Shown here: in pieces, positions 34,289 through 54,917 of the stretch
Position numbering within the stretch: the first letter of the stretch is position 1
Layout of the letters: each line of letters begins with the position of its first letter
Origin: a virus
DNA length: 64,000 nucleotides
Reading direction: 5' to 3' (one strand)
Virus record (IMG/VR): IMGVR_UViG_3300032163_000009
Span: 13,736 to 77,735 of that record
Position numbers and translations under genes: made by a program
The notes under the pieces: generated by a model
What the model saw: the letters and a program-made list of their open reading frames with translations, nothing else
Databases searched by the model: none
Told to the model about the DNA's origin: nothing

Positions 34289-35485
34289 CTACAACCCGTT
34301 ATCTCGGATGTGGCGGAACAGTTTGATCAAAGTGTCATGCTCGCCGACGAGATGGTTGCCGCCGTCCTCGCCCTGCCCCGGTTGGCTGATCACATAACCG
34401 GCACGCTGCAAAGGCTCAATCCAGTCCGACCATTTCTTGGAAGTATAGTTGGGCAACCAACGGAAGCCTGGGATCGTGTCGGAGTTTTCGGTCCATTGAT
34501 ACGGCAGTTTGTTGCGTTTGCCTTTGGCGCGCATGGCGGCACTGAGCAAGGCAACGACATGCTTGCGTTCAATGAATTTCTTTTGACGCTCTGCGAGTTC
34601 GGCTGGATCATCGGCGTAGAAAGTTTCGCGTCCGAGATTGCGGATCAACACACCGCTGGGCGTTGTCGGCAACGCGCCGGAAAAATTCTGACCTTGATGA
34701 CTAACGACTTCGGCCTTTGGAGTTTCGGCGGCTGAATCCGCAGCCGGTGGTGTAAAGAATTCCTGTGGCTCACTTAGCCTCGAAGTCGGCGCAGCCAGCA
34801 AAAGAATTTCAGCGCCTTGCAACTCGCCCCAGCGGTTGTACCTCAATTTCAACCAGCCGCGATCCTTGTCCCAGAACGTGGTCGTTTTCGTGTTCAAGTG
34901 TCGCAGCAAGATCGCCAGTCCGATGATCGCCGCCAAGACACCCGCTGCCACTAAAAAGCCGATCGCCAATCGCCCGACGCCGTTGTTGTAATTGGATTGA
35001 TCGATCGAGTCGTGCAAGTCTTGCGCGGTCTGCGTCGCTTGCACCATGGTATTGGTTTGCTGGATGAGCGCGGCTTGCTGCGTCGCGCTCAGTGACACTT
35101 GCGACTCGATCGCCAGCGCGGTCGCGGTCGCTTTGACGATGGCCGATTTTTCTTGCAGCGCGATGGCCGTTGCTTGCAGGTTCAAGGCTTGCACCGTTGA
35201 CGTGAAGATCAAGGCTTGGGCTTGCTGCGTCGCCATGATCGAGCGGCCTTGCGCATCGACTTGCGCCTGAACCTGCGCGGTCGCCTCGGCAATCCTCACA
35301 TTCAAAGCTTGCTGCGTCGCGCGCAAATTATCTTGTTGGGAATTGATCGACACCGATTGACCCGCCAGACCGATCGACGGCGGTTCACTTTGATCAGCTG
35401 AACTCACCGCGAAGCAACCGGCCAAAATAAAACTAGACAGTCCGATCGCCGTCAGTGCCAATAATTTTCGGTTAGTCATCATCAC
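34289..35485 (-). CDS. Putative lipoprotein/membrane protein with ATQQA/ATATA repeats
   Basis: Signal peptide with ILAG-C lipobox, Q/A/T-rich stalk, second TM, cytoplasmic domain. Confidence 0.75.
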   Translation of the reverse strand: MMMTNRKLLALTAIGLSSFILAGCFAVSSADQSEPPSIGLAGQSVSINSQQDNLRATQQALNVRIAEATAQVQAQVDAQGRSIMATQQAQALIFTSTVQALNLQATAIALQEKSAIVKATATALAIESQVSLSATQQAALIQQTNTMVQATQTAQDLHDSIDQSNYNNGVGRLAIGFLVAAGVLAAIIGLAILLRHLNTKTTTFWDKDRGWLKLRYNRWGELQGAEILLLAAPTSRLSEPQEFFTPPAADSAAETPKAEVVSHQGQNFSGALPTTPSGVLIRNLGRETFYADDPAELAERQKKFIERKHVVALLSAAMRAKGKRNKLPYQWTENSDTIPGFRWLPNYTSKKWSDWIEPLQRAGYVISQPGQGEDGGNHLVGEHDTLIKLFRHIRDNGL

Positions 35486-35903
35486 TCTCCGTCGCCCGTC
35501 GTTCGTTCAAGATCATTTCCAATTGGGTAGCTGCTTCATCAATGCTCGTCCGATCAACGCTCGGCAAGAAATCGATCGTCGGTTGCGGCCATTCAATTTT
35601 CTCCGGCGTGTAATTCGGGCGGCTGCTTTGAACTCGATGCAAAAACATTCGAGCGCCTTCATCACTGAATCCCATTTGTGTTTTGTGTTTCATGATCAAG
35701 CGGTCGAGCCATTGGCGCTGGCGGGGCGTGATACGATCCGACTTCGCCAACTGCTGAACAAATTTATCGGCCTGATTGAACGCGCCAAATTTGCAGCGAC
35801 TCAATTTCTTGATCGCCTCGCGCTCCGCGTCTGTCTGATCAAACCACACCACCGGCACTTTGGTTGTCATTCGCTGTCCCCTCACCTGCTTCATTTGCTT
35901 CAT
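35472..35903 (-). CDS. Hypothetical protein
   Basis: Overlapping operon structure; start may be 35870. Confidence 0.65.
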   Translation of the reverse strand: MKQMKQVRGQRMTTKVPVVWFDQTDAEREAIKKLSRCKFGAFNQADKFVQQLAKSDRITPRQRQWLDRLIMKHKTQMGFSDEGARMFLHRVQSSRPNYTPEKIEWPQPTIDFLPSVDRTSIDEAATQLEMILNERRATESDDD

Positions 35904-36153
35904 CTATTTCTTGCCACCGCGCAGGTGGCACATATTGACTGCCCACAATTTTCAATTCATACCAAGTGCGCCCGACGATCACCAGTCCCTCTTTCGCCAA
36001 GGCGTTCAAAATATATTTCAAGTGACTGGCTGACGACACCTTGAACCGTTTGATCACCTCAGCCCGATCAGGCAACGCGCCTTGATGATCGATCAAGTAT
36101 TGAACAAGGTAACGGTAGAGGGCGTGATAGTTTTTCTTGCGTGTGCCTGACAT
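35839..36153 (-). CDS. LexA-like winged-helix regulator (no protease domain)
   Basis: LYRYLVQY..HQGALPDRAEV..SSASHLKYILNALAKEGLV. Confidence 0.75.
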   Translation of the reverse strand: MSGTRKKNYHALYRYLVQYLIDHQGALPDRAEVIKRFKVSSASHLKYILNALAKEGLVIVGRTWYELKIVGSQYVPPARWQEIDEANEAGEGTANDNQSAGGVV

Positions 36154-36159
36154 GCCGGT

Positions 36160-36188
36160 ATCTTAGTTCATAACGCCTAAAATGTCCA
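36160..36188 (-). promoter_or_regulatory. Promoter TGGACA-N17-TAAGAT, probably leaderless transcript
   Basis: -10 ends 6 nt before ATG at 36153; no SD. Confidence 0.55.
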
Positions 36189-36570
36189 GTGGCAATTTTA
36201 AGCCGTGCGGTAGACACCGCAGCGATGCATTGGCGCAGCGCGGCAAAGAATAACGGCAACGCCTACGGTTGAATTTCAACGCGGCTGGACTAAAATGATG
36301 TGGACTATGTGTTCGCATGTGCGACGCGCTGCTGTGTGCTTTTAGCACTGCAAACAATATACCCAAACTGCGCAGCGCGTCCTACCCGTTTTGGGGCGAT
36401 TTTGGTCCCGCCGTCCAGCCCCTAAACTGCCCGCAGGACGCTTGAGAACCCAAAAGAGCGCCCCTACAGCCCTATCTATATGTAGGAACAGCCCCAAATA
36501 AGCGCTGCGCAACGCTGCAAACAACCCCCAAAACTGACATTGTAGACCCCTCTTTTTGCCCAGTTGATAG

Positions 36571-36599
36571 TTGACATTTACTGTATAAACGTTTATACT
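36571..36599 (+). promoter_or_regulatory. Main rightward promoter TTGACA-N17-TATACT with overlapping 16-bp palindrome
   Basis: GTATAAACGTTTATAC at 36583-36598. Confidence 0.8.
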
Positions 36600-36605
36600 G
36601 TTTTT

Positions 36606-37375
36606 GCAACAAGCAATTGCAACGCGCAGATGGATAGCAAGACACACAACGGTTTGGGAACGTAAAAGGAATTTCTGCACAGGTTTCCCACCCGATCTAG
36701 GCGCGCAAAAAACAAAATGGAACGGTACTGCGTTTAAGAGTTTGTGTGTTGCGCAGTGCAGCAGGTTGAGGAATGTTTGTGAAGTGCAGATGGCGGTCGT
36801 TTTTTCGGGCAGCGCGCCAGCAAGTGCAAAGTAACAAAAAACATTCAACCTAAAGCACAGCGCGTAGAACGCTAAACAAACCACAGGCCACATTTTGAAA
36901 TAGCAGTTGTGCAAATAGTGTGAGGAGTTGTTAGCATGTGCGAACGGGCTAACATGCGCAGCAGAAAATAATAGCTGCGCAGGATCGCTACACTTGGGGA
37001 TGAACACGCTCCAGAAAATTGAGAACTGTTTGTGGACTGGGCTACATGCGCAGCAAACAAACTGAACAGCAAATTGTTCGTAACCTCTCAAATCCATTTA
37101 GTCCACTCACTGCCGCACTTGTAGAAAGTTTACAAGGCGACAAACAAAACACCTACATCCGGCCAGACCGGTGACATACTTTGCAAATCGTTTGGACTAG
37201 AAAATTGTTAGGCGCTGCGGACTGCGAGCAGGTTTGCACACGTTGCAAAATAACTCCGCTGGACAGCTTCAACGTCCGTAACCCGCAGCGCCTAACCCAA
37301 CGATTGAAAATAAATTTTGCAGCCCGTTCGACGCGCTGCAAAATTTGCGTTCAACCAAATCCAAAACGCAGAACA
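36606..37375 (+). ncRNA. Putative large structured RNA / long 5' leader
   Basis: No credible ORF; several long stems, e.g. 37207-37220/37283-37296 (14 bp) and 37312-37323/37335-37346 (12 bp). Confidence 0.55.
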
Positions 37376-37389
37376 CAGGAGAACAAAAA

Positions 37390-38076
37390 ATGGCACTGCA
37401 ATCGAAACAAAGCGTGGTAAAGGAAATTACGAAATTGGAATTGAAACTGCGCGGCAAGTTTTTTCAAGAGCGAGGCCGGACGTGGTTTAGCAGCAAGTTG
37501 ACTCGCAAGCAACGCGCTGACATTGAATGGCGGGTCGCAGTGCATCATCGTTGGTTCGAGATGCACTTGACCGCAGCCGAATACAAAAAACTGAAAGCAG
37601 AGTACGGCTGTGAACGCAAAGGCTGCTATGTGTTCGTCACCGCGCAGTTAGAAACAGTGCGCGTGACGATCCCGGCGGCTAAGTTCAGCGGCAAACAAAC
37701 GCGCGAAAATTTCCAAATCGATTTTATCGAACGCGACTACATGGCAAAGCAAGTGCAACGCACAAGGAGCAATGACATGCACAACAAGGTAATTAAAACC
37801 GATCTTAAGACTTTTGAGCGCGACCGAGAAACTGCACTGAAAGAATTTTGCGTTTGGCACAATTTGAAAATTGTCAAACGCTATACGACGCGCACCGAAT
37901 ACGCCGTCCCCAAAGGCAACTTACTGCGCGGCGGCGACACAAACGATCGCGTGCTGATGGCATGTGGTTGCCGATTGCGCTACGAATATTTGAAAGGTTG
38001 GCGGTTTGCAGATAAACACGCAGCCCGACATGAAACAAACTGCGCTGACAATGAATTCAACGGTTACGTTTGGTAA
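37390..38076 (+). CDS. Hypothetical early protein
   Basis: AGGAG RBS, ATG 37390. Confidence 0.75.
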   Translation: MALQSKQSVVKEITKLELKLRGKFFQERGRTWFSSKLTRKQRADIEWRVAVHHRWFEMHLTAAEYKKLKAEYGCERKGCYVFVTAQLETVRVTIPAAKFSGKQTRENFQIDFIERDYMAKQVQRTRSNDMHNKVIKTDLKTFERDRETALKEFCVWHNLKIVKRYTTRTEYAVPKGNLLRGGDTNDRVLMACGCRLRYEYLKGWRFADKHAARHETNCADNEFNGYVW

Positions 38077-38105
38077 CCACTCAATCACCTCAAGGAGAAA
38101 ATAAA

Positions 38106-38678
38106 ATGTCCGACAAAAATTTGAATCAACTATTGAAGAAGGCCGACGAAGCCCGCAGTCAAGTGAACTACTTTACAGACGCCCAGTTAGCTTACCGGTT
38201 AATCGCCCGACGCGGCTCCAAAGGTTTTGTGCGCAGCGCGAAAGAAGGTCAAGTGTACGACCAGATGGCGTGCGTGGCAGTGCAATTGAAGAAGGATGTG
38301 CTTGCCGGTGACACCACACACATTTCATTGAGCATCGGAGCAGCCAAAGAACTGCGCAGCCAATTGAACACCGCGATCGAGCAGTATGAATTTGCAACGC
38401 GACAAGATGACATTGAAACGCGAGCACGCGAGGACGCCAAGGCGGGCTTGAAGCCGCTGATGATTTGGACGGCGATTGTGGAATGGCGACTGTGCGGCAG
38501 CAACACTGTAGGCGGCAAAGAAGTGATCGAGCGCGAAGAAGTAGATTTGCAAATCCGCAGCGACGATCGAACGATTGCGCGTGAGGCAATGAAAGAGGAA
38601 CTGTCGCGCAATTACCGCGAGGGCGGCAAAATTATTTCGATGGGCAAGCGCGGCAACCTGTCCGTTTATCAACTGTAA
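38106..38678 (+). CDS. Hypothetical early protein
   Basis: AAGGAG RBS. Confidence 0.75.
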   Translation: MSDKNLNQLLKKADEARSQVNYFTDAQLAYRLIARRGSKGFVRSAKEGQVYDQMACVAVQLKKDVLAGDTTHISLSIGAAKELRSQLNTAIEQYEFATRQDDIETRAREDAKAGLKPLMIWTAIVEWRLCGSNTVGGKEVIEREEVDLQIRSDDRTIAREAMKEELSRNYREGGKIISMGKRGNLSVYQL

Positions 38679-38688
38679 AAGATTCGAA

Positions 38689-38817
38689 CGCGCTGCGCAG
38701 TGCAACGCCCTCACCCACCGGCGAGGAGGCAAGACTTAGGCACTGCGCAGCGCGGGTTATTGTTTTGCCCGCGTGTGCGTTGGCAACGACGCATAGGCGG
38801 GCAAGCCGGTAACGGTT
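38689..38817 (+). ncRNA. Intergenic structured RNA element (three hairpins, GNRA loops)
   Basis: 15-bp perfect stem 38689-38703/38740-38754; GCAA- and GTAA-capped hairpins. Confidence 0.6.
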
Positions 38818-38846
38818 TGACTACATTTTGATCGGAGAAAAATAAA

Positions 38847-39125
38847 ATGGCACACCTTGAAAATGAAATCGCTCCACTATCATCTAGCGTAAAAAAGGAA
38901 ATCAGAAACAAACTCGACGGGCTGGCAGACAAAGTTACTTTCCACCGCGACGGCAGTATCGAGATTCGCTTCGGCTTCTTTTATCGTCACGGCATGACGA
39001 CCGAGACTTGCAAGAAAAATGTATTGGCCGTCGTGCCCGATGCAAAATTTGTCGAAGATGAATGCTTTGAGAATTGGCAGCCGTGGCCGCGTGACTCTTA
39101 CTTCAAGATCACCTTCAAGATTTAA
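38847..39125 (+). CDS. Hypothetical protein
   Basis: ATCGGAG RBS. Confidence 0.75.
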   Translation: MAHLENEIAPLSSSVKKEIRNKLDGLADKVTFHRDGSIEIRFGFFYRHGMTTETCKKNVLAVVPDAKFVEDECFENWQPWPRDSYFKITFKI

Positions 39126-39158
39126 GATCAATTCCAAATTTCAATCGGAGGCAGTGAC

Positions 39159-39458
39159 ATGATTAAAACAATTCAATATACACTCAGGTTCACTGAGGGC
39201 ATTGCTTCATCGATGAAGCACCATATAACAATAACGTGTGGGAGTGTAACTGGAAAGGCGACTGTCGAAATTACAGAAACAGATGACGGCCGGCTTGGTG
39301 ATGGCTCTAAGGAAAATCCGTTCATTGGGCGACTGTTAGAAATGGCGGACGACCATGAAGTGAATCTAAGCGGGCCGTATGACGCACGCGGGAATTTCAG
39401 AAACTTGAGCGGCGCACATGAATATGGTTCACCGCGCAATCTGGACATCGAGAAGTAA
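39159..39458 (+). CDS. Hypothetical protein flanked by 26-bp direct repeats
   Basis: ATCGGAGG RBS; repeats at 39136-39161 and 39458-39483. Confidence 0.7.
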   Translation: MIKTIQYTLRFTEGIASSMKHHITITCGSVTGKATVEITETDDGRLGDGSKENPFIGRLLEMADDHEVNLSGPYDARGNFRNLSGAHEYGSPRNLDIEK

Positions 39459-39480
39459 AATTTCAATCGGAGGCAACGAC

Positions 39481-39750
39481 ATGCTCGCTTTACATCGCAC
39501 GGCCAAGACGCAGCGTCAAACCAACAGCACATTGACGGACTGCGTCGTTAAGACTTTCCTGATCGAGATCGAAGACGCGCTGCGCACTTACTGTCAACAG
39601 CACGGCTTCACGATCGACCGGCGCCGGATCGTGTTCATCAAAGAGGCGCGCAACATCGGCGCGCTGACCGTCAACATCGCGCTGGTCAAGCGCGGAGGTC
39701 GGCACTTCACGCTATACGAACAAAACGCGCAATGGTGCAAAGTCAACTGA
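39481..39750 (+). CDS. Hypothetical protein
   Basis: ATCGGAGG RBS. Confidence 0.7.
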   Translation: MLALHRTAKTQRQTNSTLTDCVVKTFLIEIEDALRTYCQQHGFTIDRRRIVFIKEARNIGALTVNIALVKRGGRHFTLYEQNAQWCKVN

Positions 39751-39779
39751 ACGACATTCAAATGATCGGAGGATCAAAA

Positions 39780-40022
39780 ATGACTGAGCAAGAAGCAAAT
39801 CAATTGAAAGCCGTGTTAGGCGGTGAGGTATTGCAAACGGGCGGCGGTGTGTATGTGCTGATCCTAAAAGAAGTCAACCGGCCATACTGCGACGACGCTC
39901 GCGTGTTGGTGTTTAGCGGTGAAGTGATTGCGGAATACTTTAGCCGCGAGTTCTTTGACGATGGTATGCAACCAGCCGCAGAGTATGACTTAGACACGGT
40001 GGTTAATTATGACCAAAGTTAA
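39780..40022 (+). CDS. Hypothetical protein
   Basis: ATCGGAGG RBS. Confidence 0.7.
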   Translation: MTEQEANQLKAVLGGEVLQTGGGVYVLILKEVNRPYCDDARVLVFSGEVIAEYFSREFFDDGMQPAAEYDLDTVVNYDQS

Positions 40023-40539
40023 TTACGATCGCACGGACGTTCGCGCGACGGTCGAAGCAGCGCATCGCGTGATCGGCAGCATCGAAACTTCCAAAGTGAA
40101 GTTCGTGTATGCGACGGCCAACGGCTTTGTGGTGTCCGGCGTGAAGCCGCCGATCGCTCAAGACTACTACCGAGTGACGTTCGACCAGCACGAATTGATC
40201 ACGGCCAACCCGCAAGAGTATTATGCGTTTGGCTTCGTGATCGCCACGGCCAACAACGGCGCGAAAGACACCTGTACCTACATGGGCAATGAAGACACAC
40301 TCGACAAAGCGATCGAACGGGTGACCGGCGCAGTCATTAGATACATGCGCGAGGGCGTGATTGTTTATCGCGCCGAAGTCAATCGCATGTGCAAGCGCTG
40401 TAATTTCACCGGCACGATCGGCAAGATCGGCCACGCGCAGACTTGCCCTAGTTGTCGGGGTGCGCCGTTGATGAAGGTTGAGCGCGTCTTGATCGACTTG
40501 CCTTTTACAGCGGGCAAGGTGTGGAATGTAAAGGATTAA
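40009..40539 (+). CDS. Hypothetical protein with DnaJ-like Zn finger
   Basis: CKRCNFTG...CPSCRG. Confidence 0.7.
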   Translation: MTKVNYDRTDVRATVEAAHRVIGSIETSKVKFVYATANGFVVSGVKPPIAQDYYRVTFDQHELITANPQEYYAFGFVIATANNGAKDTCTYMGNEDTLDKAIERVTGAVIRYMREGVIVYRAEVNRMCKRCNFTGTIGKIGHAQTCPSCRGAPLMKVERVLIDLPFTAGKVWNVKD

Positions 40540-40562
40540 ATCTGATTCGGAGAAATCGAAAA

Positions 40563-40832
40563 ATGAAACACTCTAAACGTCCAGCACTATTGGCCGCCGC
40601 TGAATATCTTGGCACTTACTGCCTGATGCAAATGCAGGTTGAACGCTTGATCGAATTGGTGCGCGAGCATCGGCACACCGACATCACGGCCATCCGTGAT
40701 CAAAGCCAACCGCGCTGCTTCAAGGTGTCCGTCGCACACAACAATGATTGGGATCGCAATGACTATTTGAATCTGGCCGCATTTGTAGCAAGGGCGGTTA
40801 CGGTCTTGCCAGAGGCACAGCATGTCGCCTAA
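40563..40832 (+). CDS. Hypothetical protein
   Basis: TTCGGAG RBS. Confidence 0.65.
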   Translation: MKHSKRPALLAAAEYLGTYCLMQMQVERLIELVREHRHTDITAIRDQSQPRCFKVSVAHNNDWDRNDYLNLAAFVARAVTVLPEAQHVA

Positions 40833-41163
40833 AGTCAGAATCGTTCACGTCAAGCGCGGCATGACCGCCGCGAATGTGATCAAGCACCTGCGCGTGATAC
40901 TCGAAGCGCAGCGCCAGTCGTTGATCGACAACACTGCGCAGGAATGGGTGGAGTATTATCACAACCAAGTCCAGCAAATGATCGCCGCGATCGGCGCACT
41001 GGATGGCGGCGCTGATATTGTGACGGTGTTGGCGCAGGTGAAGAAATTTATCAACGGCAACTACTTGAGTTCGATCGCGCGGCTGTATGAAGCCAATCGC
41101 TACGGCTTTAAGCCCGACGACAACTGGCAAGTCATTGACGGCGATCTCGTAAGGCAAACCTAA
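40822..41163 (+). CDS. Hypothetical protein
   Basis: Overlapping operon. Confidence 0.7.
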   Translation: MSPKVRIVHVKRGMTAANVIKHLRVILEAQRQSLIDNTAQEWVEYYHNQVQQMIAAIGALDGGADIVTVLAQVKKFINGNYLSSIARLYEANRYGFKPDDNWQVIDGDLVRQT

Positions 41164-41567
41164 TGCCCAATCAAGAACTGTTTCAATGGCTAAGCCAATT
41201 TCGCAACACCAGCAACGGCGACACGTTTAGAATCGGTCAAGCCGACTTGATGATTCACTCGCAACGCCACACCACTGATCGCGTGAACTTGGATGAGATC
41301 GTGACACGCGATCGAGGCCGCGGCTACGGCGGCACAGCACTGAAAGAATTTTGCACTGCGCTCGATCGTTGCAAAGTGACTTGCGTGCTGGTGTGTGAAC
41401 CGTTTTCAGTAACGTATCACACGCTTGACGGCGAGGAAGAAATCATCGCGCCGTCGCAGTCGTGGCGACAACTGCAAGCGTGGTATCGAAAGTTTGGCTT
41501 CAAGGGCAGCGGCAAGGTCATGATTCGCAGGCCGCAAAGCCAGTTCGCCGAAGGAGATAAAAGATGA
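41163..41567 (+). CDS. GNAT-family acetyltransferase
   Basis: RGRGYGG motif A; LQAWYRKFGF. Confidence 0.75.
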   Translation: MPNQELFQWLSQFRNTSNGDTFRIGQADLMIHSQRHTTDRVNLDEIVTRDRGRGYGGTALKEFCTALDRCKVTCVLVCEPFSVTYHTLDGEEEIIAPSQSWRQLQAWYRKFGFKGSGKVMIRRPQSQFAEGDKR

Positions 41568-42001
41568 CGGATGTCGAACAGGACTTGATGGACTATTTAC
41601 GCAGTGTAAGCGAGATGACTCAAGGCCGATCGCTTGAAGGCGTGGTGTTGAAGCACGTCCGAATCTGCCTTGCACAGAAGTTACCGTCCGGCTGCAAGCG
41701 CGGGCCTAAAGGCATGTGCTTCATGAACGCCTACCATCTAGTTTGCTCCAAGCCGGAGTTGTCGTATGTGGAAGGCTTCGCTATGACGGAGGTTGTGCCA
41801 ATCGCTATTCGGCACGCTTGGGCGGTTGATAAACAAAATCAAGTCTACGACAACACTTGGAAGACAGTCGGGGTGGCTTACTTCGGCATTGTAATGAAGT
41901 TGAATCAAGTCAACAAGATAATTTTTGAGACAAAGCGCTACGGCGTGCTGGATTTTTCCAGCGCAGCGTTCCGAAAGATGGTGGAGGTGAAGGATGCCTA
42001 A
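41564..42001 (+). CDS. Cys-His-Asp (transglutaminase/papain-like) protein
   Basis: CFMNAY, YVEGFA, HAWAVD, YDNTW. Confidence 0.6.
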   Translation: MTDVEQDLMDYLRSVSEMTQGRSLEGVVLKHVRICLAQKLPSGCKRGPKGMCFMNAYHLVCSKPELSYVEGFAMTEVVPIAIRHAWAVDKQNQVYDNTWKTVGVAYFGIVMKLNQVNKIIFETKRYGVLDFSSAAFRKMVEVKDA

Positions 42002-42200
42002 GACGCTTGTTTCATCCCCGCAAGTGGTGCGCTATCAGAAAGAATTTGTCAATCGCACCTGGCGCGTTGTGCCGCACATTTTCGACAACGGCGAAAAGGC
42101 TGACGAATGGGCGGCGAGTCACCGCTGGCTGCACTGGGTTGTCCCCGCTGATTTTGGCGGCCACAAAGTTCTCGACGCGATCGATCATCGCGGCGAATAG
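41994..42200 (+). CDS. Small hypothetical protein
   Basis: GGAGG RBS. Confidence 0.6.
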   Translation: MPKTLVSSPQVVRYQKEFVNRTWRVVPHIFDNGEKADEWAASHRWLHWVVPADFGGHKVLDAIDHRGE

Positions 42201-42209
42201 GAGCCTGAC

Positions 42210-42623
42210 ATGAAAAACAAATCAACGCGATCGAGTCCAACGATCGGCGCTTCGACACTGCCGATTAAATATGCCGTGAAAGACGCCGGGCGCGTGCTGC
42301 CCTCGACGGTGGCGGCGAAAGTGCAATTGCTGGCTGAGGCGTTCAATCAATCAGCGCGTGAACGCAATGCCAACACGACCGGCTCGATCGTTCCATTGAT
42401 TGTCAAGTTTCGGTTGCATACAGTGATGGCGCCGATTGTTGGCTACGCAGATGTGCCACTTGACGCCATGCTGTTTCAAGACAATCGAGAAATTAAGCCG
42501 ATGACCAAAAATCTCGACAGTCGGCGCGGCGACACTTATGCCGTGCGGCTGATGGCGCATGAAGGCAATCACTTTTTGGAAGTGTATCACTACACATGGC
42601 AAGCGGAGGTTGAACATGCCTGA
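42210..42623 (+). CDS. Hypothetical protein
   Basis: AGGAG RBS. Confidence 0.7.
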   Translation: MKNKSTRSSPTIGASTLPIKYAVKDAGRVLPSTVAAKVQLLAEAFNQSARERNANTTGSIVPLIVKFRLHTVMAPIVGYADVPLDAMLFQDNREIKPMTKNLDSRRGDTYAVRLMAHEGNHFLEVYHYTWQAEVEHA

Positions 42624-42885
42624 TCAATTGCGCAAAATAAAAACGATCATCGGCTATACCGCCGACGCCCGCTTTTACGCAGAAGCGAGCGACGAGATTG
42701 TCGGCTTCGTCAAACGGCGTTCTGAAATTCCTTCACCGTACCGTTACTCACCAACGCATGAAGTGCTGCTATTCAAGGGCTTGAAAGTCATTCACGTTGA
42801 AACGGCACATCGCCGCTATGAAATTTTCGACGTGAGCGATCTGCAAATCTTCGCAACCGAAGACGAAGCGATGAATAGCGCTTGA
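42616..42885 (+). CDS. Hypothetical protein
   Basis: GGAGG RBS, ATG 42616. Confidence 0.7.
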   Translation: MPDQLRKIKTIIGYTADARFYAEASDEIVGFVKRRSEIPSPYRYSPTHEVLLFKGLKVIHVETAHRRYEIFDVSDLQIFATEDEAMNSA

Positions 42886-42889
42886 TTGA

Positions 42890-42918
42890 TTGTCAAGAAT
42901 TGTATAACCATTTATAAT
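42890..42918 (+). promoter_or_regulatory. Promoter TTGTCA-N17-TATAAT
   Basis: Motif in AT-rich gap. Confidence 0.75.
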
Positions 42919-42939
42919 AATCCTCGGAGGCATTCCAAT

Positions 42940-43401
42940 ATGGACGAAAAATTGTTAGGCACGAATGTAAGCGATCGGCGGATCGGATTTTGTTTGGTCT
43001 GCGGCGAGGTCGGCGCAGTGGCGATCGAGATTGGCGGCACACTGATCATCTCGACCAATTATCAAAACATCACCGGCGCAGAACATCCTAACGCGCTGCG
43101 CTCGATCGATGTTGATCACGGCAACGGCCAAGCGCATTGTCGGGCCGAAGACTTGGGCTTGCTGGAAATTCACCAGACGGCACAGCTCTCCGGTAGCCAC
43201 GATCAAACGATCTACAAGGCGATTCAACGCAAGCGACTGAGCGCGACAACTTTGCCGTTCACCGGCAACCGGCAATTTATTGATCCGATCGACTTGCCGC
43301 ACTACTGGCTGACCGCGAAAGCGGGCCGCCCGAAAGGGCCACGCAGCAAGCCGTATCAATACAAAAAGAAAGAACCGGAGGCTGCTATCGCCAATAAATA
43401 A
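42940..43401 (+). CDS. Zn-site plus excisionase/MerR-like HTH protein
   Basis: CLVC..; LEIHQTAQLSG..TIYKAIQRKRLSA; GRP AT-hook-like tail. Confidence 0.65.
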   Translation: MDEKLLGTNVSDRRIGFCLVCGEVGAVAIEIGGTLIISTNYQNITGAEHPNALRSIDVDHGNGQAHCRAEDLGLLEIHQTAQLSGSHDQTIYKAIQRKRLSATTLPFTGNRQFIDPIDLPHYWLTAKAGRPKGPRSKPYQYKKKEPEAAIANK

Positions 43402-43453: not shown

Positions 43454-44980
43454 ATGTTATCAACAAAATCTGCTCGGCAGGCAGGCGTCCCCCTCATTGT
43501 CGTTGAAACCAACGACAGCGCCCAATCGGTTAAAACATTTCGCGCGGAGTTAAATGGTCGGGCTGACACCAGTCCGATGATTTCGCACGATCTAGGCAGC
43601 GGCGTGCAAGCCTACAACGACGTTGGCGGAGAATTGCTGCAAACCTTGTGCGGCGACGAAGATCGCACCGGCATGAATCCAGCCACGTTCTTAATCAATG
43701 TAGCGAAGCTGCGCAGCCTGGAAGTTGAGCAACCGGTCTATGTGTTGCTGTTCAATCCGCAGTTGTATTGGAACTTGGAGTCCGGCATCACCATTCAGCA
43801 AGCGGTCTGGAATCTGCGCGACGTACTCAAGCCCTCGAAATCTCAACTGCTCATGTTCGTGCCGACTGGCACGCAATTGCCCGACGTGTTGAAGTCGGAC
43901 GTGCTGGTGTTGAAAGACACGCTGCCCACGCCTGCGGAGTTGACCGAGATCATCGAACGCACGCTGAACAGCGCAGTCAAAGCCGGATTGGATGCCAAGA
44001 AAATCCCTGATCGCGTGACCATTCTCAAGACACTGACGGGCTTGCCTGCGTTTCCAGCGGAGCAGGTGTTAGCGATGTCCATTAGTCGTGAGGGCGTTGA
44101 CACGAAAAATTTGTGGGAGCGCAAGCGCCAAGCGATCGAACAAACGCCCGGCCTCAGCGTGTGGCGCGGCGGCGAATCGTTTAACGACATTGGCGGCTAC
44201 GAGAACGTCAAAGAGTTCATGCGGCGCATTATCGGCGGCCGTGACGCGCCGAACGCGATCGTTTATCAAGACGAGATGGAAAAGTTTTTCGGCGCGAACG
44301 TGACCGGCGACAATACCGGTGTCACGCAAGATCAGTTAGGCGTGCAATTGGCTTACATGCAAGACACCAACGCGCTCGGCTGCATGTTCCTCGGTGTGCG
44401 CGGCAGTGGCAAGAGCGCGATTGCCAAAGCGATCGGCAACGAAGCTGGCATCCCCACGATCGCGCTAGACTTGGGCGGCATGAAGGCGGGCATCGTGGGA
44501 TCTTCGGAAGCGCGGCTGCGCAGCGCATTCGATGTCGTTAGTTCAATCTCGCAGGGCCGTGTGTTGTTCATTGCCACCTGCAACTCGGTCGCCACGCTGC
44601 CACCGGAATTGCGACGGCGTTACAACTACGGCACTTTCTTCTTCGACATCCCCGACAGCGCCTCGCGCAAAAAGATTTGGGACATTTACAAAAAGAAGTA
44701 TCCTGAACTGGCGAAAGAAAAAACGCCATCGGACGAAGGCTGGACGGGCAGCGAGATTCGAAACTGCGTGATGATTGCGTGGAACTTGAAGATCACGCTG
44801 CTGGACGCGGCCAAGTACATTGTGCCGGTGACCGTTAGCGACGCAGTGGCGACCACGCGCCTGTTAGAGAGCGCCAACAATCGGTATTTGGATGCGTCGA
44901 GCGCGGGACTATTCCAATACAAGTCGAAGTCAAAGAGCAGCGCAGCCAATTCGGGCGAGCGCAAAATGGAGTTGGATTAA
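43454..44980 (+). CDS. Ycf46-like AAA+ ATPase with swapped Walker A/B segments
   Basis: DIGG, DEMEK, GVRGSGKS, VGSSE, ATCN, LPPELRRR, GWTGSEI. Confidence 0.88.
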   Translation: MLSTKSARQAGVPLIVVETNDSAQSVKTFRAELNGRADTSPMISHDLGSGVQAYNDVGGELLQTLCGDEDRTGMNPATFLINVAKLRSLEVEQPVYVLLFNPQLYWNLESGITIQQAVWNLRDVLKPSKSQLLMFVPTGTQLPDVLKSDVLVLKDTLPTPAELTEIIERTLNSAVKAGLDAKKIPDRVTILKTLTGLPAFPAEQVLAMSISREGVDTKNLWERKRQAIEQTPGLSVWRGGESFNDIGGYENVKEFMRRIIGGRDAPNAIVYQDEMEKFFGANVTGDNTGVTQDQLGVQLAYMQDTNALGCMFLGVRGSGKSAIAKAIGNEAGIPTIALDLGGMKAGIVGSSEARLRSAFDVVSSISQGRVLFIATCNSVATLPPELRRRYNYGTFFFDIPDSASRKKIWDIYKKKYPELAKEKTPSDEGWTGSEIRNCVMIAWNLKITLLDAAKYIVPVTVSDAVATTRLLESANNRYLDASSAGLFQYKSKSKSSAANSGERKMELD

Positions 44981-44981
44981 C

Positions 44982-45254
44982 ATGCCTTGCGATACAGTTC
45001 AAATCACGGGAATTCAATTAGGCAAAGTCGATGCCGCGCTGCTGGAAGCAGCGATGGCGAGTTTGGACTATCAACGCTATCAATGGAAGTTGATCGGCGA
45101 AGAAGTGCAAGTGCGCGGCCAGCGGCTGACCGATGAAGATATTTCAGCGGTCAAGGTGGCGTATTCGCAGCAGGTGGTGAAGCAGACGGCTAATAAGTTT
45201 GGCTGGCAGTTGAAGCAGATTAGCCCGACGCAGTTTGTGGCGGTGAAGCGATGA
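44982..45254 (+). CDS. DUF1257/Ycf35-like small protein
   Basis: LLEAAMASL..AYSQQVVKQTANKFGW; follows Ycf46-like ATPase. Confidence 0.55.
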   Translation: MPCDTVQITGIQLGKVDAALLEAAMASLDYQRYQWKLIGEEVQVRGQRLTDEDISAVKVAYSQQVVKQTANKFGWQLKQISPTQFVAVKR

Positions 45255-45463
45255 ACGGCGACGAAATCAAGATTGAGATTCTCGCAGACGGCACGATCAA
45301 GATCGAAACCGATCGCATCGGCCCCGCCAATCACTTGAGCGCCGAACGCTTCATCAAAGAAGCGCAGCGCTTGGCAGGCGGTGCGACTAAAATCACCCGC
45401 AAGGTTGGCAAATTCTTGCGCGGTCAACACGATCATTCACATACTCAAACCGGAGGGCATTGA
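45251..45463 (+). CDS. DUF2997-like small protein
   Basis: IKIEILADGTIKIET. Confidence 0.55.
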   Translation: MNGDEIKIEILADGTIKIETDRIGPANHLSAERFIKEAQRLAGGATKITRKVGKFLRGQHDHSHTQTGGH

Positions 45464-45467
45464 GAGC

Positions 45468-46493
45468 ATGGCAAACAAAACAGCAACACCTAAGAAATTG
45501 AGTCGGCAGGTTATCCGCAGCGTGGAGCAGGCTTTTGGCGAAGCCGACAAACCAAGCGGCAGTCAAACGATCGGTCTCGACGTGTTAGCGAACGCGGCGT
45601 TATTCACGTTCACTTTTCACCGCTGGGGCAATCGGCGCAAAGCCGACACCACGCCCGAAGGCGCGATCGATGACGAAGACAAGGCGAAGAAGCGCGTGCG
45701 ATCGACGCTGCGCTTAATTGAGAGCGAAGCGTACGATACCATCAATAGTTATATCAACGAAGCGCGGCAGTGGCTATTGGGGCGGTGTATGCCGTCCTAC
45801 ATGGTCAAGGGCGTGTTTTTCGTTAAGTTGGATCAAGTCGAAACGTTTGAGGCGAAGATCGCGGAAGTGAAAGAATGGATGTCCAAGACCGGCTTGCCGG
45901 ATTTGCTGAGCGACTATGAGCGCGCCATTGATCAAGCGGAAGTAGACTTGCGGGCGGTGTCTCGCACACTGCGCAGCGCGGAGTTATTCAATCGCGCCGA
46001 TTATCCCAAGCCAAACGACTTGCGGTCGCGCTATTATGTGACGCACAACTGGATGAGCTTCGGCGTGCCGCAGAACTTGCCGCTGAAGATACGCGAGCAG
46101 GAAGAGACGAAGATCAAAGCCAAGTTCGAAGACGCAGCCGCCGAAATTACCGAAGCGCTGCGGGCGGCTTTCAACGAACTGCTCACCACGGCGACGGCGC
46201 GACTGACCGCCAACCCCAACGGCAAGAAGATGATCATTCGATCGGCGCTGGTCGACAACTTCAACGAGTTCATCGAGACGTTCAACGCGCGGAACTTGAC
46301 CGACGATCGACAGTTGGAACAACTGGTTGAGCAAGCGCGAGCATTGATGAAGGGGGTCAGCGCCGAAACACTGCGCACGCGCCCGACGGTGCGGCGCAGC
46401 GTGGCCGCGCAGTTGTTAAACTTGCAAGCGGCCGCAAAAGAACTGGTCATCGAGCGACCGGATCGAAAATTCGACTTTGATGATGAGGAATAA
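45468..46493 (+). CDS. DUF3150-like helical protein
   Basis: LFNRADYP, FNARNLTDDRQLEQLVEQAR. Confidence 0.55.
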   Translation: MANKTATPKKLSRQVIRSVEQAFGEADKPSGSQTIGLDVLANAALFTFTFHRWGNRRKADTTPEGAIDDEDKAKKRVRSTLRLIESEAYDTINSYINEARQWLLGRCMPSYMVKGVFFVKLDQVETFEAKIAEVKEWMSKTGLPDLLSDYERAIDQAEVDLRAVSRTLRSAELFNRADYPKPNDLRSRYYVTHNWMSFGVPQNLPLKIREQEETKIKAKFEDAAAEITEALRAAFNELLTTATARLTANPNGKKMIIRSALVDNFNEFIETFNARNLTDDRQLEQLVEQARALMKGVSAETLRTRPTVRRSVAAQLLNLQAAAKELVIERPDRKFDFDDEE

Positions 46494-46495
46494 AC

Positions 46496-46846
46496 ATGCC
46501 AACTGTCAGTGACGCCAAACAAGATGAAGTCTGGCAGCACTTGATGCAGTTGCCTGCGTCACACCGCCCTAACGGTGTGACGCAGGCCAGGCTGGAACGC
46601 ATCAAGGCGCAGGTCTACCAATACCCGTTCTTCTGGCAAGATGTCGTCGTGCGACATGGCTTGCTCGATCGAACGCCGGAGCAACTGAAAGCCGCTGATC
46701 TCGCGGCCTACGAACACATGCTCGGCAATGCGTGGGGCATGATAGCGACGCTGGTGCAGCAAATGCTGCTCGCGCCGGAGCAGCCCGAGGTGATTAAGGA
46801 GCAGCATGAGCAAAGAGATAGTGCGCAGTGTGCGGCTTTGGAATAA
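46496..46846 (+). CDS. Hypothetical protein
   Basis: GAGGA RBS. Confidence 0.65.
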   Translation: MPTVSDAKQDEVWQHLMQLPASHRPNGVTQARLERIKAQVYQYPFFWQDVVVRHGLLDRTPEQLKAADLAAYEHMLGNAWGMIATLVQQMLLAPEQPEVIKEQHEQRDSAQCAALE

Positions 46847-47357
46847 CACCGATCGGCACGACAAGGTGTACGAGATCGATCTGGTGCAGCCTGACGGATC
46901 GAAAAATCTGTATGAAGTGCAATTCCGTTACGGGCGGCGCGGCACCAATTTGCAAGTCGGTGTGAAGGTGCGCGACGTGTCGCTGCTGAAAGCCGAAGCC
47001 GTTTACGCTGACCTGTTAGCAACAAAGCGCGGGCGCGGATATGAAATCTTGGCTTACCAATCGGTATCCAGCCTCGGAGAAGCCCGCGCTGAGCGAGTTG
47101 AATGGACAGGCGAAACGCTGGCAGATAAATCCGAGAAAGCCGCACGCGAAATCTTGGCACAACGGCAGCGTGAGAGAATCACTGAAATAAACCGGCGCGG
47201 AATCAAGCGCTCATTAAGCGACGAAGACATTCTTCTGCGGCGCGTCACGCAAACAACGCAGGCCAAGCCAGCCGCCAAGCCACCCGCAGGCAAATCGAAC
47301 ACGACTAAACCGATCGGGCCGACCGAGCGGAAATTTACTTTTGACGACGAGGAGTAG
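46806..47357 (+). CDS. WGR-domain protein
   Basis: HDKVYEI..VQFRYGRRG..ATKRGRGY. Confidence 0.75.
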   Translation: MSKEIVRSVRLWNNTDRHDKVYEIDLVQPDGSKNLYEVQFRYGRRGTNLQVGVKVRDVSLLKAEAVYADLLATKRGRGYEILAYQSVSSLGEARAERVEWTGETLADKSEKAAREILAQRQRERITEINRRGIKRSLSDEDILLRRVTQTTQAKPAAKPPAGKSNTTKPIGPTERKFTFDDEE

Positions 47358-49522: not shown

Positions 49523-49616
49523 GCCGCAGGATGAGGTTGCCGGAACACATTTCAACGCAGCCGATCGACGGCAACTCGATCGGCTGCATCAAATTTAATC
49601 GGAGAACAATAAACGC

Positions 49617-52908: not shown

Positions 52909-52915
52909 TTGAGCA

Positions 52916-52954
52916 AGTGACTGCGCTGCCGATCATTACGGCAGCGCAGTCACT
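52916..52954 (+). terminator. 16-bp perfect hairpin (weak U-tract)
   Basis: AGTGACTGCGCTGCCG/CGGCAGCGCAGTCACT. Confidence 0.5.
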
Positions 52955-52965
52955 CTTAGGAGATC

Positions 52966-54175: not shown

Positions 54176-54589
54176 ATGAATGACGCGACACTGCTAACCT
54201 TGATTGGCGAACGGCCAACTCAGGCGCCGGAAGGCTGGCTGATCTTCAATGCCCCTCGCCCGCTATATGGGCAGTTGGAATGGCAAGGCGATTTCAAACA
54301 CGGCCTTTTCTATGTCGCAGTCGATCCGGCTGATGAATTCTCCGCAGGCTTCATTTTTGAGAACCTGCGCAACGATGCCTATTTGCTGCGTTATGCGTCA
54401 CCCGTTGAAGTGATGGAGTGGGCCAAGAAGTTTGCCGCTGACCATCAAGTAGACCTAGCAGACTTCGAGCAGCGGGACATCGAGAACTCGTGGCGCAACT
54501 CGCATCCGGCGCTGGTGCGGTCATACGATCCGAGTCTGCGCAAAATAACAGCCGAGCAATTGCTGGCCTTGTTCGAGGCAGCGACGTGA
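54176..54589 (+). CDS. Hypothetical protein (MNDATLL...)
   Basis: Internal AAGGA RBS and ATG in frame with the methyltransferase. Confidence 0.65.
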   Translation: MNDATLLTLIGERPTQAPEGWLIFNAPRPLYGQLEWQGDFKHGLFYVAVDPADEFSAGFIFENLRNDAYLLRYASPVEVMEWAKKFAADHQVDLADFEQRDIENSWRNSHPALVRSYDPSLRKITAEQLLALFEAAT

Positions 54590-54906
54590 TCGCCGAAGAG
54601 TCTGCGCGAGTTAAGCCGCAGCGGCGGTCGATCGTCAAGCGCGAAGAAATCGTGAAGTTCATCGCTGACTATCAAGACTTTTGGAAATATCCGCCGACGT
54701 TCGAGGAGGTTACAGTCGGCTGCAATCTCTCTACGAAGTCACTAACGGACTATCACTTGCAAGCGCTGGCGGCTGAGGGGCGCGTCACTTGGCAGCATTA
54801 TATGACCCGCACATTGCAAGTCATCGAGCCAGTGCCAACGAGCAAAAGTGTTCAATTTTGCTCGTTGAAATTAAGGGTTGACAACGGAGGCGATCAGGCA
54901 CTATAA
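54586..54906 (+). CDS. LexA DNA-binding-domain-like regulator
   Basis: REEIVKFI..YPPTFEEV..LSTKSLTDYHLQALAAEG. Confidence 0.85.
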   Translation: MIAEESARVKPQRRSIVKREEIVKFIADYQDFWKYPPTFEEVTVGCNLSTKSLTDYHLQALAAEGRVTWQHYMTRTLQVIEPVPTSKSVQFCSLKLRVDNGGDQAL

Positions 54907-54907
54907 T
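54878..54907 (+). promoter_or_regulatory. Promoter TTGACA-N18-TATAAT for replication operon
   Basis: Both boxes perfect consensus. Confidence 0.8.
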
Positions 54908-54917
54908 CATTGCACAG

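What the first reader, a model, noticed from the sequence alone, without database searches (positions are those of the whole stretch)
36606..37375. About 780-nt ORF-free, densely paired RNA directly after the main early promoter
Seen: stems at 36751-36778/36839-36863, TGTTAGC/GCTAACA near 36930-36954, GTGGACT/AGTCCAC (37032-37038/37100-37106), a perfect 14-bp stem closing a multi-branch domain (37207-37220/37283-37296), a 12-bp hairpin (37312-37346), A-rich linkers, and a repeated GGGCTA(A)CATGCGCAGCA (36946, 37039). Inference: a large phage ncRNA (size class of GOLLD/ROOL, identity not established) or a put-like antitermination leader for the 25-kb early operon.
Basis: partly seen in the sequence, partly recalled or inferred. 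Interest (0 to 1): 0.72.

Follow-up and report, generated by a model that had tools for sequence, protein, structure and literature searches.

The report
Hairpin-rich untranslated phage early leader
This is a real 785-base non-coding leader between a strong early promoter and the first early gene of an orphan sediment phage. Only its last ~150 bases fold exceptionally well, and nothing shows it to be a large stand-alone RNA like GOLLD or ROOL.

Summary
The stretch lies in the largest non-coding gap of the window (36154-37389) on a 77.7-kb IMG/VR contig from a sediment metagenome. A near-consensus sigma-70 promoter (36571-36599) is overlapped by a 22-bp LexA-box-like palindrome. It is followed by about 785 nt without credible ORFs, up to AGGAG-N8-ATG at 37390.

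The reported stems exist. As a whole, 36606-37200 folds no better than shuffles (z -1.6) or than the genome background. Only 37207-37354 is extreme (z about -6): a three-way junction closed by a perfect 14-bp helix, plus a roughly 20-bp hairpin. It folds equally well on both strands.

Similar very stable hairpins without U-tails lie in other intergenic spacers of the rightward arm.

There is no Rfam match, tRNA, intrinsic terminator, iteron or AT-rich block. No homologue was found by any search, and both flanking proteins are singletons among 5.8 billion proteins. Covariation therefore cannot be tested, and no RNA data exist.

Best reading: a cis-acting untranslated leader whose hairpins are mRNA processing or stability sites, or attenuation sites, as in T7 early mRNA. 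It is not a GOLLD/ROOL-class RNA. The same stretch was noted once more by this scan, on the same DNA only. Interest is low to moderate.

The parts
35839..36153 (-). Divergent 104-aa gene for a LexA-type winged-helix DNA-binding domain without a peptidase domain. It is the candidate regulator of the early promoter.
   Evidence: Weak Pfam LexA_DNA_bind hit (E 0.0028, below cut-off). Atlas feature and structure neighbours are all LexA_DNA_bind clusters. Positive codon score. Singleton in the 5.8-billion-protein library.
36154..36570 (.). Non-coding DNA upstream of the promoter, part of the same 1236-bp gap. It holds two TGGACTA copies 15 bp apart (36286, 36301) and one copy of ACTGCGCAGCGCG (36367).
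36571..36599 (+). Sigma-70-type early promoter TTGACA-17-TATACT.
   Evidence: Matches 11 of 12 consensus positions.
36580..36601 (.). 22-bp near-perfect palindrome ACTGTATAAAC|GTTTATACtGT, with CTGT...ACtG ends like a LexA box. It overlaps the spacer and the -10 hexamer and is the candidate operator.
   Evidence: Only copy in the window; 0 expected in shuffles.
36606..37389 (+). Predicted untranslated leader of the first rightward transcription unit. The transcription start is inferred from the promoter and has not been mapped.
   Evidence: No credible ORF. No terminator-like site on +. Positive AT skew as in the + strand genes.
36750..36864 (+). Hairpin domain 1: a long irregular hairpin of stacked 4, 7, 4, 4 and 5 bp helices.
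   Evidence: Pair probabilities above 0.9. z -3.3 on both strands. The unbiased tile gives z -2.3.
36925..36985 (+). Twin hairpins (7-bp and 8-bp stems). They are overlapped by an 11-codon uORF (ATG 36937, stop 36970-36972) preceded by GAGGAG-N8.
   Evidence: z -4.8 on + and -4.5 on -. The uORF was read from the sequence.
37035..37190 (+). C-rich, G-poor stretch (C/G up to 2.3) holding only small hairpins (37064-37079, 37118-37136, 37159-37171). Its composition resembles a Rho loading site.
37207..37296 (+). Domain A: a three-way junction closed by a perfect 14-bp helix, with two inner hairpins.
   Evidence: z -4.7 on +; z -4.6 on -.
37304..37354 (+). Domain B: a roughly 20-bp hairpin (5 bp, internal loop, 13 bp, 3 bp) with all Watson-Crick pairs in the core and no U-tail.
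   Evidence: z -5.4 on +; z -5.8 on -. Not flagged as a terminator.
37377..37392 (+). Shine-Dalgarno AGGAG (37377-37381), 8-nt spacer, and ATG (37390) of the first early gene.
   Evidence: Sequence. The frame is confirmed by translation.
37390..38076 (+). First early gene, 228 aa, an orphan.
   Evidence: Codon score +0.28. No family match. It is its only relative among 5.8 billion proteins. No usable Atlas neighbour.

Best explanation
The stretch is the untranslated 5' leader of the phage's first rightward (early) transcription unit. It is not a separate RNA gene.

Host RNA polymerase would start at the near-consensus promoter at 36571-36599. That promoter is probably gated by a protein binding the overlapping LexA-box-like palindrome: the divergently encoded LexA-domain protein or host LexA. 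Transcription would then run through about 785 nt of non-coding RNA into the first early gene.

The leader carries five local hairpin domains. The last two are by far the strongest: the 37207-37296 three-way junction with a 14-bp closing helix, and the 37304-37354 hairpin of about 20 bp. They end 35 nt before the start codon.

They belong to a set of very stable hairpins without U-tails that this phage places in untranslated spacers of the rightward arm. I take them to act in the mRNA as double-strand-specific (RNase III-type) processing sites, stability sites, or both. Such sites would trim the long leader and leave protective hairpins at transcript ends, as in T7 early mRNA.

**Shown:** the promoter match, the non-coding nature, the hairpins and their statistics, and their recurrence in spacers.

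**Inferred:** transcription, the transcription start, RNA-level action, and cleavage.
For: - **Promoter and operator:** promoter match and unique overlapping palindrome. LexA-domain neighbour.
- **Non-coding status:**
- **Read-through:** no terminator-like site on + between the promoter and the gene.
- **Same transcription unit:** the leader shares the A>T bias of the + strand genes.
- **Module statistics:** the 3' module gives z -6.2 and is among the top 3 of 485 tiles.
- **Recurrence in spacers:** equally strong hairpins without U-tails lie in other spacers of the + arm. These are 38679-38828 (z -7.3, 12 kcal/mol better on +), 49557-49587, 52909-52965 (z -7.8) and 54929-55006 (z -7.1, directly after a 12/12 promoter).
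- **Location of perfect repeats:** of the five perfect inverted repeats of at least 14 bp in the window, four lie in untranslated spacers, which I estimate make up under 10% of the sequence.
- **Size fits the substrate:** Domain B (about 20 bp with an internal loop) has the size of an RNase III substrate. This rests on established knowledge of T7 R0.3-R1.3 sites and was not tested here.
Against: - There is no RNA evidence at all.
- There are no homologues, so no covariation can be tested.
- The leader hairpins are all Watson-Crick and equally stable on both strands. A DNA-level role is therefore not excluded.
- The host, and so its RNase III specificity, is unknown.
- Words such as GCGCAGCG are the commonest 8-mers of this genome on both strands. 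This raises the chance rate of inverted repeats above what dinucleotide shuffles model.
- About 600 nt of the leader have no explained role.
Confidence: 0.4

Rival explanations
1. The leader is a transcription-control leader. Either Rho loads on the C-rich, G-poor stretch at 37035-37190 and terminates at or near the stable hairpins unless countered, or the 3' module modifies RNA polymerase in cis (put-like processive antitermination). In the second case the polymerase would read through the hairpins spaced along the early region.
For: - A long untranslated RNA is a natural Rho substrate.
- C/G ratio reaches 1.6-2.3 over 37035-37177, just upstream of the strongest structures.
- Hairpins recur along the operon.
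- The element after gene 2 (38689-38754) is followed by a U-rich run (GGTTATTGTTTT) that can alternatively pair into the next hairpin.
Against: - There are no canonical terminators to override in the leader.
- The module is a three-way junction plus a hairpin about 600 nt from the promoter. That is unlike the paired stem-loops of put just downstream of the HK022 early promoters (established knowledge).
- No boxA/boxB-like motif was noticed by eye.
- No antiterminator-like protein was recognised among the early genes.
- The rut-like composition is unspecific.
Confidence: 0.2
2. The gap is a DNA-level control region. The inverted repeats and clustered words are protein-binding sites in the whole 1.2-kb gap, for example operators, looping sites or replication or partition sites. 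The RNA folds are a by-product of DNA palindromes.
For: - Perfect Watson-Crick repeats show no strand preference.
- TGGACTA occurs 4 times in the gap, plus one TGGACTg, against 8 in the whole window. Copies lie on both sides of the promoter.
- TGCAAA and TGCGCAG are each enriched 12-15-fold in the gap.
- The gap sits at the strand switch and at the cumulative GC-skew minimum.
- The phage encodes two LexA-domain proteins and a ParB-like protein.
Against: - There are no tandem or iteron-like repeats.
- There is no AT-rich unwinding block; the lowest GC, 0.38, is at the promoter itself.
- Motif spacings are irregular, and TTTGCA/TGCAAA pairs have variable gaps of 0, 5 and 17 bp.
- Arms 62 bp apart enclosing two further hairpins are unusual for a dimer site.
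- Like hairpins elsewhere sit exactly between a stop codon and the next ribosome-binding site, which fits RNA better.
Confidence: 0.2
3. Most of the leader is a non-functional or fast-evolving spacer. Its lesser hairpins arise from the genome's bias towards GCGCAGC-type words on both strands. Only the promoter, operator and ribosome-binding site matter.
For: - 36606-37200 gives z -1.58, and its tiles do not differ from background.
- GCGCAGCG and TGCGCAGCGCG are the commonest 8-mer and 11-mer of the window.
- No homologue exists anywhere, so no conservation has been shown.
Against: - A 14-bp and a 12-bp perfect repeat side by side give z about -6 and rank at the top of the genome.
- Strong perfect repeats concentrate in spacers.
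- Phage genomes rarely keep 1.2 kb of useless DNA. This is a general expectation, not a test.
Confidence: 0.13
4. The stretch is a stand-alone large structured ncRNA of about 750 nt. It would be a new class in the size range of GOLLD/ROOL and the first early product of the phage.
For: - Size, lack of ORFs and position right after a strong promoter.
- Overall z -4.4 on + against -2.5 on -.
- A-rich linkers lie between the hairpins.
Against: - No Rfam match, even at E<=10.
- No 3' end signal before the gene.
- The MFE has a frequency of about 0 in the ensemble, and the 5' 150 nt and the linkers are ill-defined.
- The fold consists of local hairpins only, and the significance comes from the last 150 nt.
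- No tRNA neighbours.
- A covariance model of the module finds nothing in 1.5 Mb of loci, nor in 50 whole records of phages sharing the AAA module.
Confidence: 0.07

Closest known systems
RNase III processing sites of coliphage T7/T3 early mRNA (R0.3, R0.5, R1, R1.1, R1.3), and the analogous Bs-RNase III sites in Bacillus phage SP82 early mRNA (from established knowledge, not tested here)
   Same: - A several-hundred-nt non-coding region lies between strong host-polymerase early promoters and the first early gene.
- A stable irregular hairpin of about two helical turns sits just upstream of the first gene.
- Further hairpins lie in intercistronic spacers of the early transcript, and none has a U-tail.
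   Different: - There is no sequence or gene relationship to T7 or SP82.
- There is one promoter here, against three tandem promoters in T7.
- The module includes a three-way junction with a perfect 14-bp helix.
- Cleavage is untested and the host is unknown.
- The stems here are perfect, whereas T7 sites have characteristic internal loops.
HK022 put RNAs (cis-acting processive antitermination)
   Same: An untranslated structured RNA lies downstream of an early promoter, ahead of a long multi-gene unit. No antiterminator protein is recognisable.
   Different: - put is about 70 nt with two stem-loops near the promoter. Here the exceptional structure is about 150 nt, has a different architecture, and lies about 600 nt downstream.
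- No similarity could be tested, and no canonical downstream terminators were identified.
GOLLD and ROOL large ornate RNAs. [quoted passage not shown]
   Same: Size class, phage origin and absence of ORFs.
   Different: - No match to any Rfam model.
- No tRNA neighbours.
- Local hairpins only, with no evidence of multistem junctions beyond one three-way junction.
- No conservation data.
- No own terminator.
Phage genetic switches with LexA-type control, such as LexA-box operators on early promoters and the DBD-only LexA homologue gp6 of Bacillus phage GIL01 (from established knowledge)
   Same: A divergently placed small LexA-domain protein, and a CTGT...ACAG-type palindrome over the -10 of the early promoter.
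   Different: - The palindrome has 12, not 8, central bases.
- Binding is untested.
- This concerns the promoter, not the leader itself.

Membership tests
GOLLD / ROOL (Rfam large ornate RNAs) | Match to the family covariance model | tested here: not met
   cmscan of the whole window at gathering score gave 0 matches. The region at E<=10 gave only three chance-level hairpin hits to two miRNA families and Yfr1.
GOLLD / ROOL (Rfam large ornate RNAs) | Complex fold with several multistem junctions and pseudoknots supported by covariation | tested here: inconclusive
   Thermodynamic folding gives local hairpins and one three-way junction. There are no homologues, so covariation cannot be tested.
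GOLLD / ROOL (Rfam large ornate RNAs) | Frequent neighbourhood of tRNA genes in prophages (PMC5737381) | tested here: not met
   ARAGORN finds no tRNA gene in 64 kb.
HK022 put-type antitermination RNA | Two adjacent stem-loops of about 70 nt in total, shortly downstream of the early promoter | tested here: not met
   The first 145 nt of the leader are poorly structured. The strong module lies 600-750 nt downstream and is a three-way junction plus a hairpin.
HK022 put-type antitermination RNA | Makes RNA polymerase terminator-resistant in cis | not testable with these tools
   This needs in vitro transcription or reporter read-through assays.
T7-type RNase III processing sites in early mRNA | Irregular hairpin of about 20 bp or more in the untranslated leader or intercistronic spacers of an early polycistronic transcript, without a U-tail | tested here: met
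   Domain B (5+13+3 bp) and Domain A (14-bp helix) lie in the leader. Like hairpins occur at 38689-38817, 49557-49587, 52909-52965 and 54929-55006, in spacers. No terminator call in the leader.
T7-type RNase III processing sites in early mRNA | Specific cleavage by host RNase III | not testable with these tools
   There are no RNA reads. The only run holding the DNA is the source DNA run.
Intrinsic (Rho-independent) terminator or attenuator | GC-rich hairpin immediately followed by a U-run | tested here: not met
   No + strand site between 36606 and 37390. Domain B is followed by GCGUUCAACC.
Riboswitch or other known cis-regulatory RNA | Match to a curated aptamer model | tested here: not met
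   A perfect 14-bp closing helix is also unlike a switching P1 helix (inference).
Phage replication origin | Iterons with regular spacing next to an AT-rich unwinding block | tested here: not met
   TRF finds nothing. Direct repeats are few and irregular. GC stays at 0.38-0.59 in 100-nt windows.
Protein-coding gene (including the 251-aa - strand ORF) | Codon usage like the phage's genes, and/or a family match | tested here: not met
   Codon score is -0.19 per codon against +0.32 +/- 0.07 for genes. The product has 18 Cys, 21 Phe and only 6 Asp+Glu, and the ORF spans the promoter. No Pfam or PHROG hit.

The most novel reading that the evidence does not exclude
The 150-nt module is a three-way junction closed by a 14-bp helix plus a 20-bp hairpin. 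Alone or with the upstream hairpins, it could be a new class of phage cis-acting RNA. It would reprogramme transcription or translation of the early unit without any recognisable protein factor, for example by put-like polymerase modification or as an anti-Rho element. Alternatively, the whole 750 nt could be a new large early ncRNA.
Probability: 0.1. Interest if true: 0.6.

Novelty: new member of a known kind. Interest (0 to 1): 0.3.

Why it matters
If the hairpins are processing or stability sites, T7-style shaping of early mRNA by host double-strand RNases would extend to an unrelated environmental tailed phage. That phage has 7-deazaguanine DNA genes and an almost wholly orphan early region.

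The practical lessons are smaller:
- A 1.2-kb gap with a 251-aa ORF should not be annotated as a gene.
- A whole-region folding z-score can hide that one 150-nt module carries nearly all of the signal.
- The leader is a cheap bench target, because its promoter is near the E. coli consensus.

Without relatives or RNA data, the case for anything new remains weak.

Tried and rejected
**Homologue searches (all empty)**
- blastn against 50,697 phage records found no match.
- IMG/VR protein-seeded scans with the first early protein, the LexA-domain protein, the 398-aa neighbour and the AAA protein found no relatives.
- The portal protein found one 61%-identical 17-kb contig that does not reach this region.
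- IMG/VR pattern scans with the repeat motif gave three chance hits; the Domain B pattern gave none.
- The metagenome pattern scan with the Domain A stem was too unspecific. Its 120 hits share no further similarity with the gap.
- The GTDB genome scan with the portal protein found only a 28%-identical Bacillota MAG.
- Both flanking proteins are singletons among 5.8 billion proteins.
- An AAA-protein alignment brought in 80 loci of phages sharing that module. None shares the gap by blastn or nhmmer, or any gene of 32-43.4 kb by tblastn.
- A single-sequence covariance model of the module found only itself in 1.59 Mb and in 50 whole records. Such a model has little power, so this blank is weak.

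**Tools and data that gave nothing**
- Sequencing runs: no RNA holder is listed. The only holder is the probable source DNA run. Its 35-kb Logan contig spans the region with no variant, joint or break. This says nothing on expression or on physical ends.

**Readings considered and rejected**
- **Decayed gene:** stop-to-stop frames gave no family match at E<=1.
- **P4/P1-like processed immunity RNA with targets elsewhere:** no complementarity beyond 13-14-nt common words.
- **sar/OOP-like antisense RNA ending at Domain B on the - strand:** no consensus - strand promoter in 37360-37580.
- **Invertible promoter segment** between the 17-nt repeats at 36286 and 37089: only 82% complementary, one of many such pairs, and no alternative joint in the contigs.
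- **MITE-like element:** no target duplication next to the 14-bp arms.
- **Physical genome end:** the large terminase is of the Terminase_3 type and lies 12 kb away next to DUF1064. I take this to suggest headful packaging from a pac site there, but this is weak, indirect evidence.

Full report
**Context**

The window is bases 13736-77735 of a 77.7-kb linear IMG/VR virus record estimated to be 73% complete. Its only public holder is a sediment-metagenome DNA run that is probably its source.

Genes left of about 36.15 kb lie on the - strand. Genes right of 37.39 kb lie on the + strand. The finding sits in the gap between the two arms, 36154-37389. At 1236 bp this is the largest non-coding gap of the window.

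**Is it non-coding?**

Mechanical ORF lists show a 251-aa ORF on the - strand (36342-37097) and TTG-start ORFs of 76 and 79 aa on the + strand.

I trained a codon-usage score on 23 long genes. It gives +0.32 +/- 0.07 per codon for genes and +0.18 to +0.35 for the genes flanking the gap. Every ORF in the gap scores -0.12 to -0.36.

The 251-aa product has 18 Cys and 21 Phe but only 6 acidic residues, and the ORF runs across the promoter. No frame matches Pfam or PHROGs, even at E<=1. The gap is non-coding.

The first gene starts at ATG 37390, 8 nt after AGGAG.

**Promoter**

TTGACA-17-TATACT at 36571-36599 matches 11 of 12 consensus positions. A 22-bp palindrome, ACTGTATAAAC|GTTTATACtGT, overlaps the spacer and the -10 hexamer. 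It is unique in the window, with none expected by chance.

The divergent neighbour gene (35839-36153) encodes a 104-aa LexA-type winged-helix domain without a peptidase domain. This looks like a repressor-operator-promoter switch, but binding is inferred only.

It is not the only strong + strand promoter. TTGTCA-17-TATAAT lies at 42890 and a 12/12 consensus promoter at 54878. The '25-kb operon' therefore probably consists of several units.

**Structure**

The whole leader (36606-37390) folds with z -4.4 on + and -2.5 on -, with only 20 shuffles each. Splitting it changes the picture:
- 36606-37200 gives z -1.58, with 5 of 100 shuffles as good.
- 37195-37365 gives z -6.24 on + and -5.85 on -, with 0 of 200 shuffles as good.

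I tiled the whole window with 150-nt tiles on both strands, 485 tiles in all. Tile 37201-37350 is one of the three best on + and the best on -. The tiles of 36601-37200 do not differ from the rest of the genome (p 0.17).

Pair probabilities define five local domains separated by A-rich linkers:
- 36750-36864 (z -3.3)
- 36925-36985 (z -4.8)
- 37110-37175 (z -2.7)
- 37207-37296 (z -4.7)
- 37304-37354 (z -5.4)

The first three values are inflated because I chose the boundaries after folding. All five domains are equally stable on both strands. The main helices contain only Watson-Crick pairs, so the sequence itself does not say whether RNA or DNA is the active form. The GTGGACT/AGTCCAC pairing is not well supported.

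**What it is not**
- No Rfam family matches, at gathering score over the whole window or at E<=10 over the gap.
- There are no tRNA or tmRNA genes.
- No intrinsic terminator lies on + between the promoter and the gene, so there is no sign of a separate RNA gene.
- There are no tandem repeats or iterons and no AT-rich block, so it does not look like an origin of replication.
- No decayed gene is detectable.

**The wider pattern**

The five perfect inverted repeats of at least 14 bp within 120 nt in the window are at 52916, 38689, 46552, 34237 and 37207. Four of them lie in untranslated spacers. The one at 46552 is inside a gene.

In the + arm, very stable hairpins without U-tails sit between a stop codon and the next ribosome-binding site, or right after a promoter:
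- 38679-38828: z -7.3, and 12 kcal/mol more stable on + than on -.
- 49557-49587.
- 52909-52965: z -7.8.
- 54929-55006: 36-nt arms, z -7.1, starting about 15 nt after the predicted start of the 12/12 promoter.

The leader's 3' module is one more member of this set. That is the main reason I prefer an RNA-level role.

The best-known precedent is the early mRNA of T7. There, a long non-coding region with host promoters is followed by an RNase III site just before gene 0.3, and further sites separate the early cistrons. Comparable sites exist in SP82 early mRNA. Both statements rest on established knowledge. I could test only the form and the placement, not cleavage.

**Rival readings**

*Transcription control.* The stretch 37035-37190 is C-rich and G-poor, with C/G up to 2.3. 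It lies just upstream of the module, so Rho-dependent attenuation or an anti-Rho or antitermination function is possible.

*DNA-level control region.* Several words cluster in the gap:
- TGGACTA occurs 4 times plus one variant, against 8 in the whole window, and lies on both sides of the promoter.
- TGCAAA occurs 7 times against 0.5 expected.
- TGCGCAG occurs 5 times against 0.4 expected.

These clusters, together with the strand-symmetric palindromes, keep this reading alive.

*Word bias.* GCGCAGCG and TGCGCAGCGCG are the commonest 8-mer and 11-mer of the window. Some inverted repeats may therefore be cheaper than dinucleotide shuffles suggest.

**No comparative evidence is available**

Both flanking proteins are singletons among 5.8 billion proteins. 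All ten early proteins I tested between 39.4 and 43.4 kb lack any family match.

Searches of phage records, IMG/VR, metagenome contigs and GTDB genomes found no relative of the gap.

The AAA ATPase module further downstream is shared with at least 135 IMG/VR contigs at 36-48% identity. Their loci share nothing with the gap or with the genes of 32-43.4 kb. A covariance model of the module finds only itself.

No RNA run holds the sequence. The source run's contig crosses the region without variants.

**Verdict**

The leader is real, non-coding and hairpin-bearing, and it follows a strong promoter. Only its last 150 nt or so are exceptional.

The GOLLD/ROOL-class reading is not supported. A cis-acting leader is the best reading. 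I put about 0.4 on mRNA processing or stability sites, 0.2 on transcription attenuation or antitermination, 0.2 on DNA-level sites, 0.13 on a mostly functionless spacer and 0.07 on a stand-alone large ncRNA.

Noticed in passing
window 36580-36601, with gene 35839-36153 (-): A 22-bp CTGT...ACtG palindrome with 12 central bases lies over the -10 of the early promoter. Next to it is a 104-aa LexA-DNA-binding-domain-only protein that is a singleton in the protein library. This may be a LexA-mimic switch.
   Followed up: partly
window 54490-55032: A second LexA_DNA_bind-like ORF (138 aa, E 1.6e-4, below cut-off) ends inside a perfect 12/12 sigma-70 promoter (54878-54907). A hairpin with 36-nt arms (54929-55006, z -7.1, tile z -9.7 on +) follows at once, just before the gene at 55033. 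This is a stronger candidate for a structured leader than the finding itself.
   Followed up: partly
window 38679-38828: The intergenic element after early gene 2 has a domain closed by a 15-bp perfect stem plus a long three-part hairpin, all enclosed by an outer stem. It gives z -7.3 on + against -4.8 on -. A U-rich run after the first stem can pair into the second hairpin, which is the layout of alternative terminator/antiterminator structures.
   Followed up: partly
window 36367, 38689 (-), 38742, 45968; also 29439, 38230, 39576, 48649: ACTGCGCAGCGCG occurs four times exactly. TGCGCAGCGCG is the commonest 11-mer of the window, with 8 copies, 7 of them between 36.3 and 48.7 kb on both strands, in genes and in spacers. 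It could be a DNA motif (regulator or modification site) or a compositional quirk.
   Followed up: partly
window 36286, 36301, 37033, 37099 (-), 37193: (G)TGGACTA words cluster in the gap on both sides of the promoter: 4 exact copies of the 8 in 64 kb, plus one variant. Two of the copies extend to TGGACTAAA(A)TG(G)AT in inverted orientation 786 bp apart.
   Followed up: partly
window 36921-36972: An 11-codon uORF (MCERANMRSRK) has a good GAGGAG-N8-ATG start. It runs through the twin hairpins and stops in the loop of the second one. The repeat GGGCTA(A)CATGCGCAGCA supplies an in-frame ATG CGC AGC in both copies.
   Followed up: no
window 37390-43400: The first early gene and the ten early genes tested between 39.4 and 43.4 kb have no Pfam or PHROG match. 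The first one also has no relative among 5.8 billion proteins.
   Followed up: partly
window 42890-42918: A further near-consensus + strand promoter (TTGTCA-17-TATAAT) lies in the spacer before the gene at 42940. It splits the supposed single early operon.
   Followed up: no
window 43454-47357: The AAA ATPase of the AAA/DUF1257/DUF2997/DUF3150/WGR module has over 1000 relatives at up to 52% identity. At least 135 IMG/VR contigs carry it, many of them complete with terminal repeats. The rest of this phage's early region is unique.
   Followed up: partly
window 35074-35320 and 55771-55801: Short in-gene repeats. CTTGCTGCGTCGC occurs three times in the 398-aa gene (35074, 35221, 35308). AGCCAGTCGAGCC occurs three times at 9-bp steps in the gene 55275-56273.
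   Followed up: no
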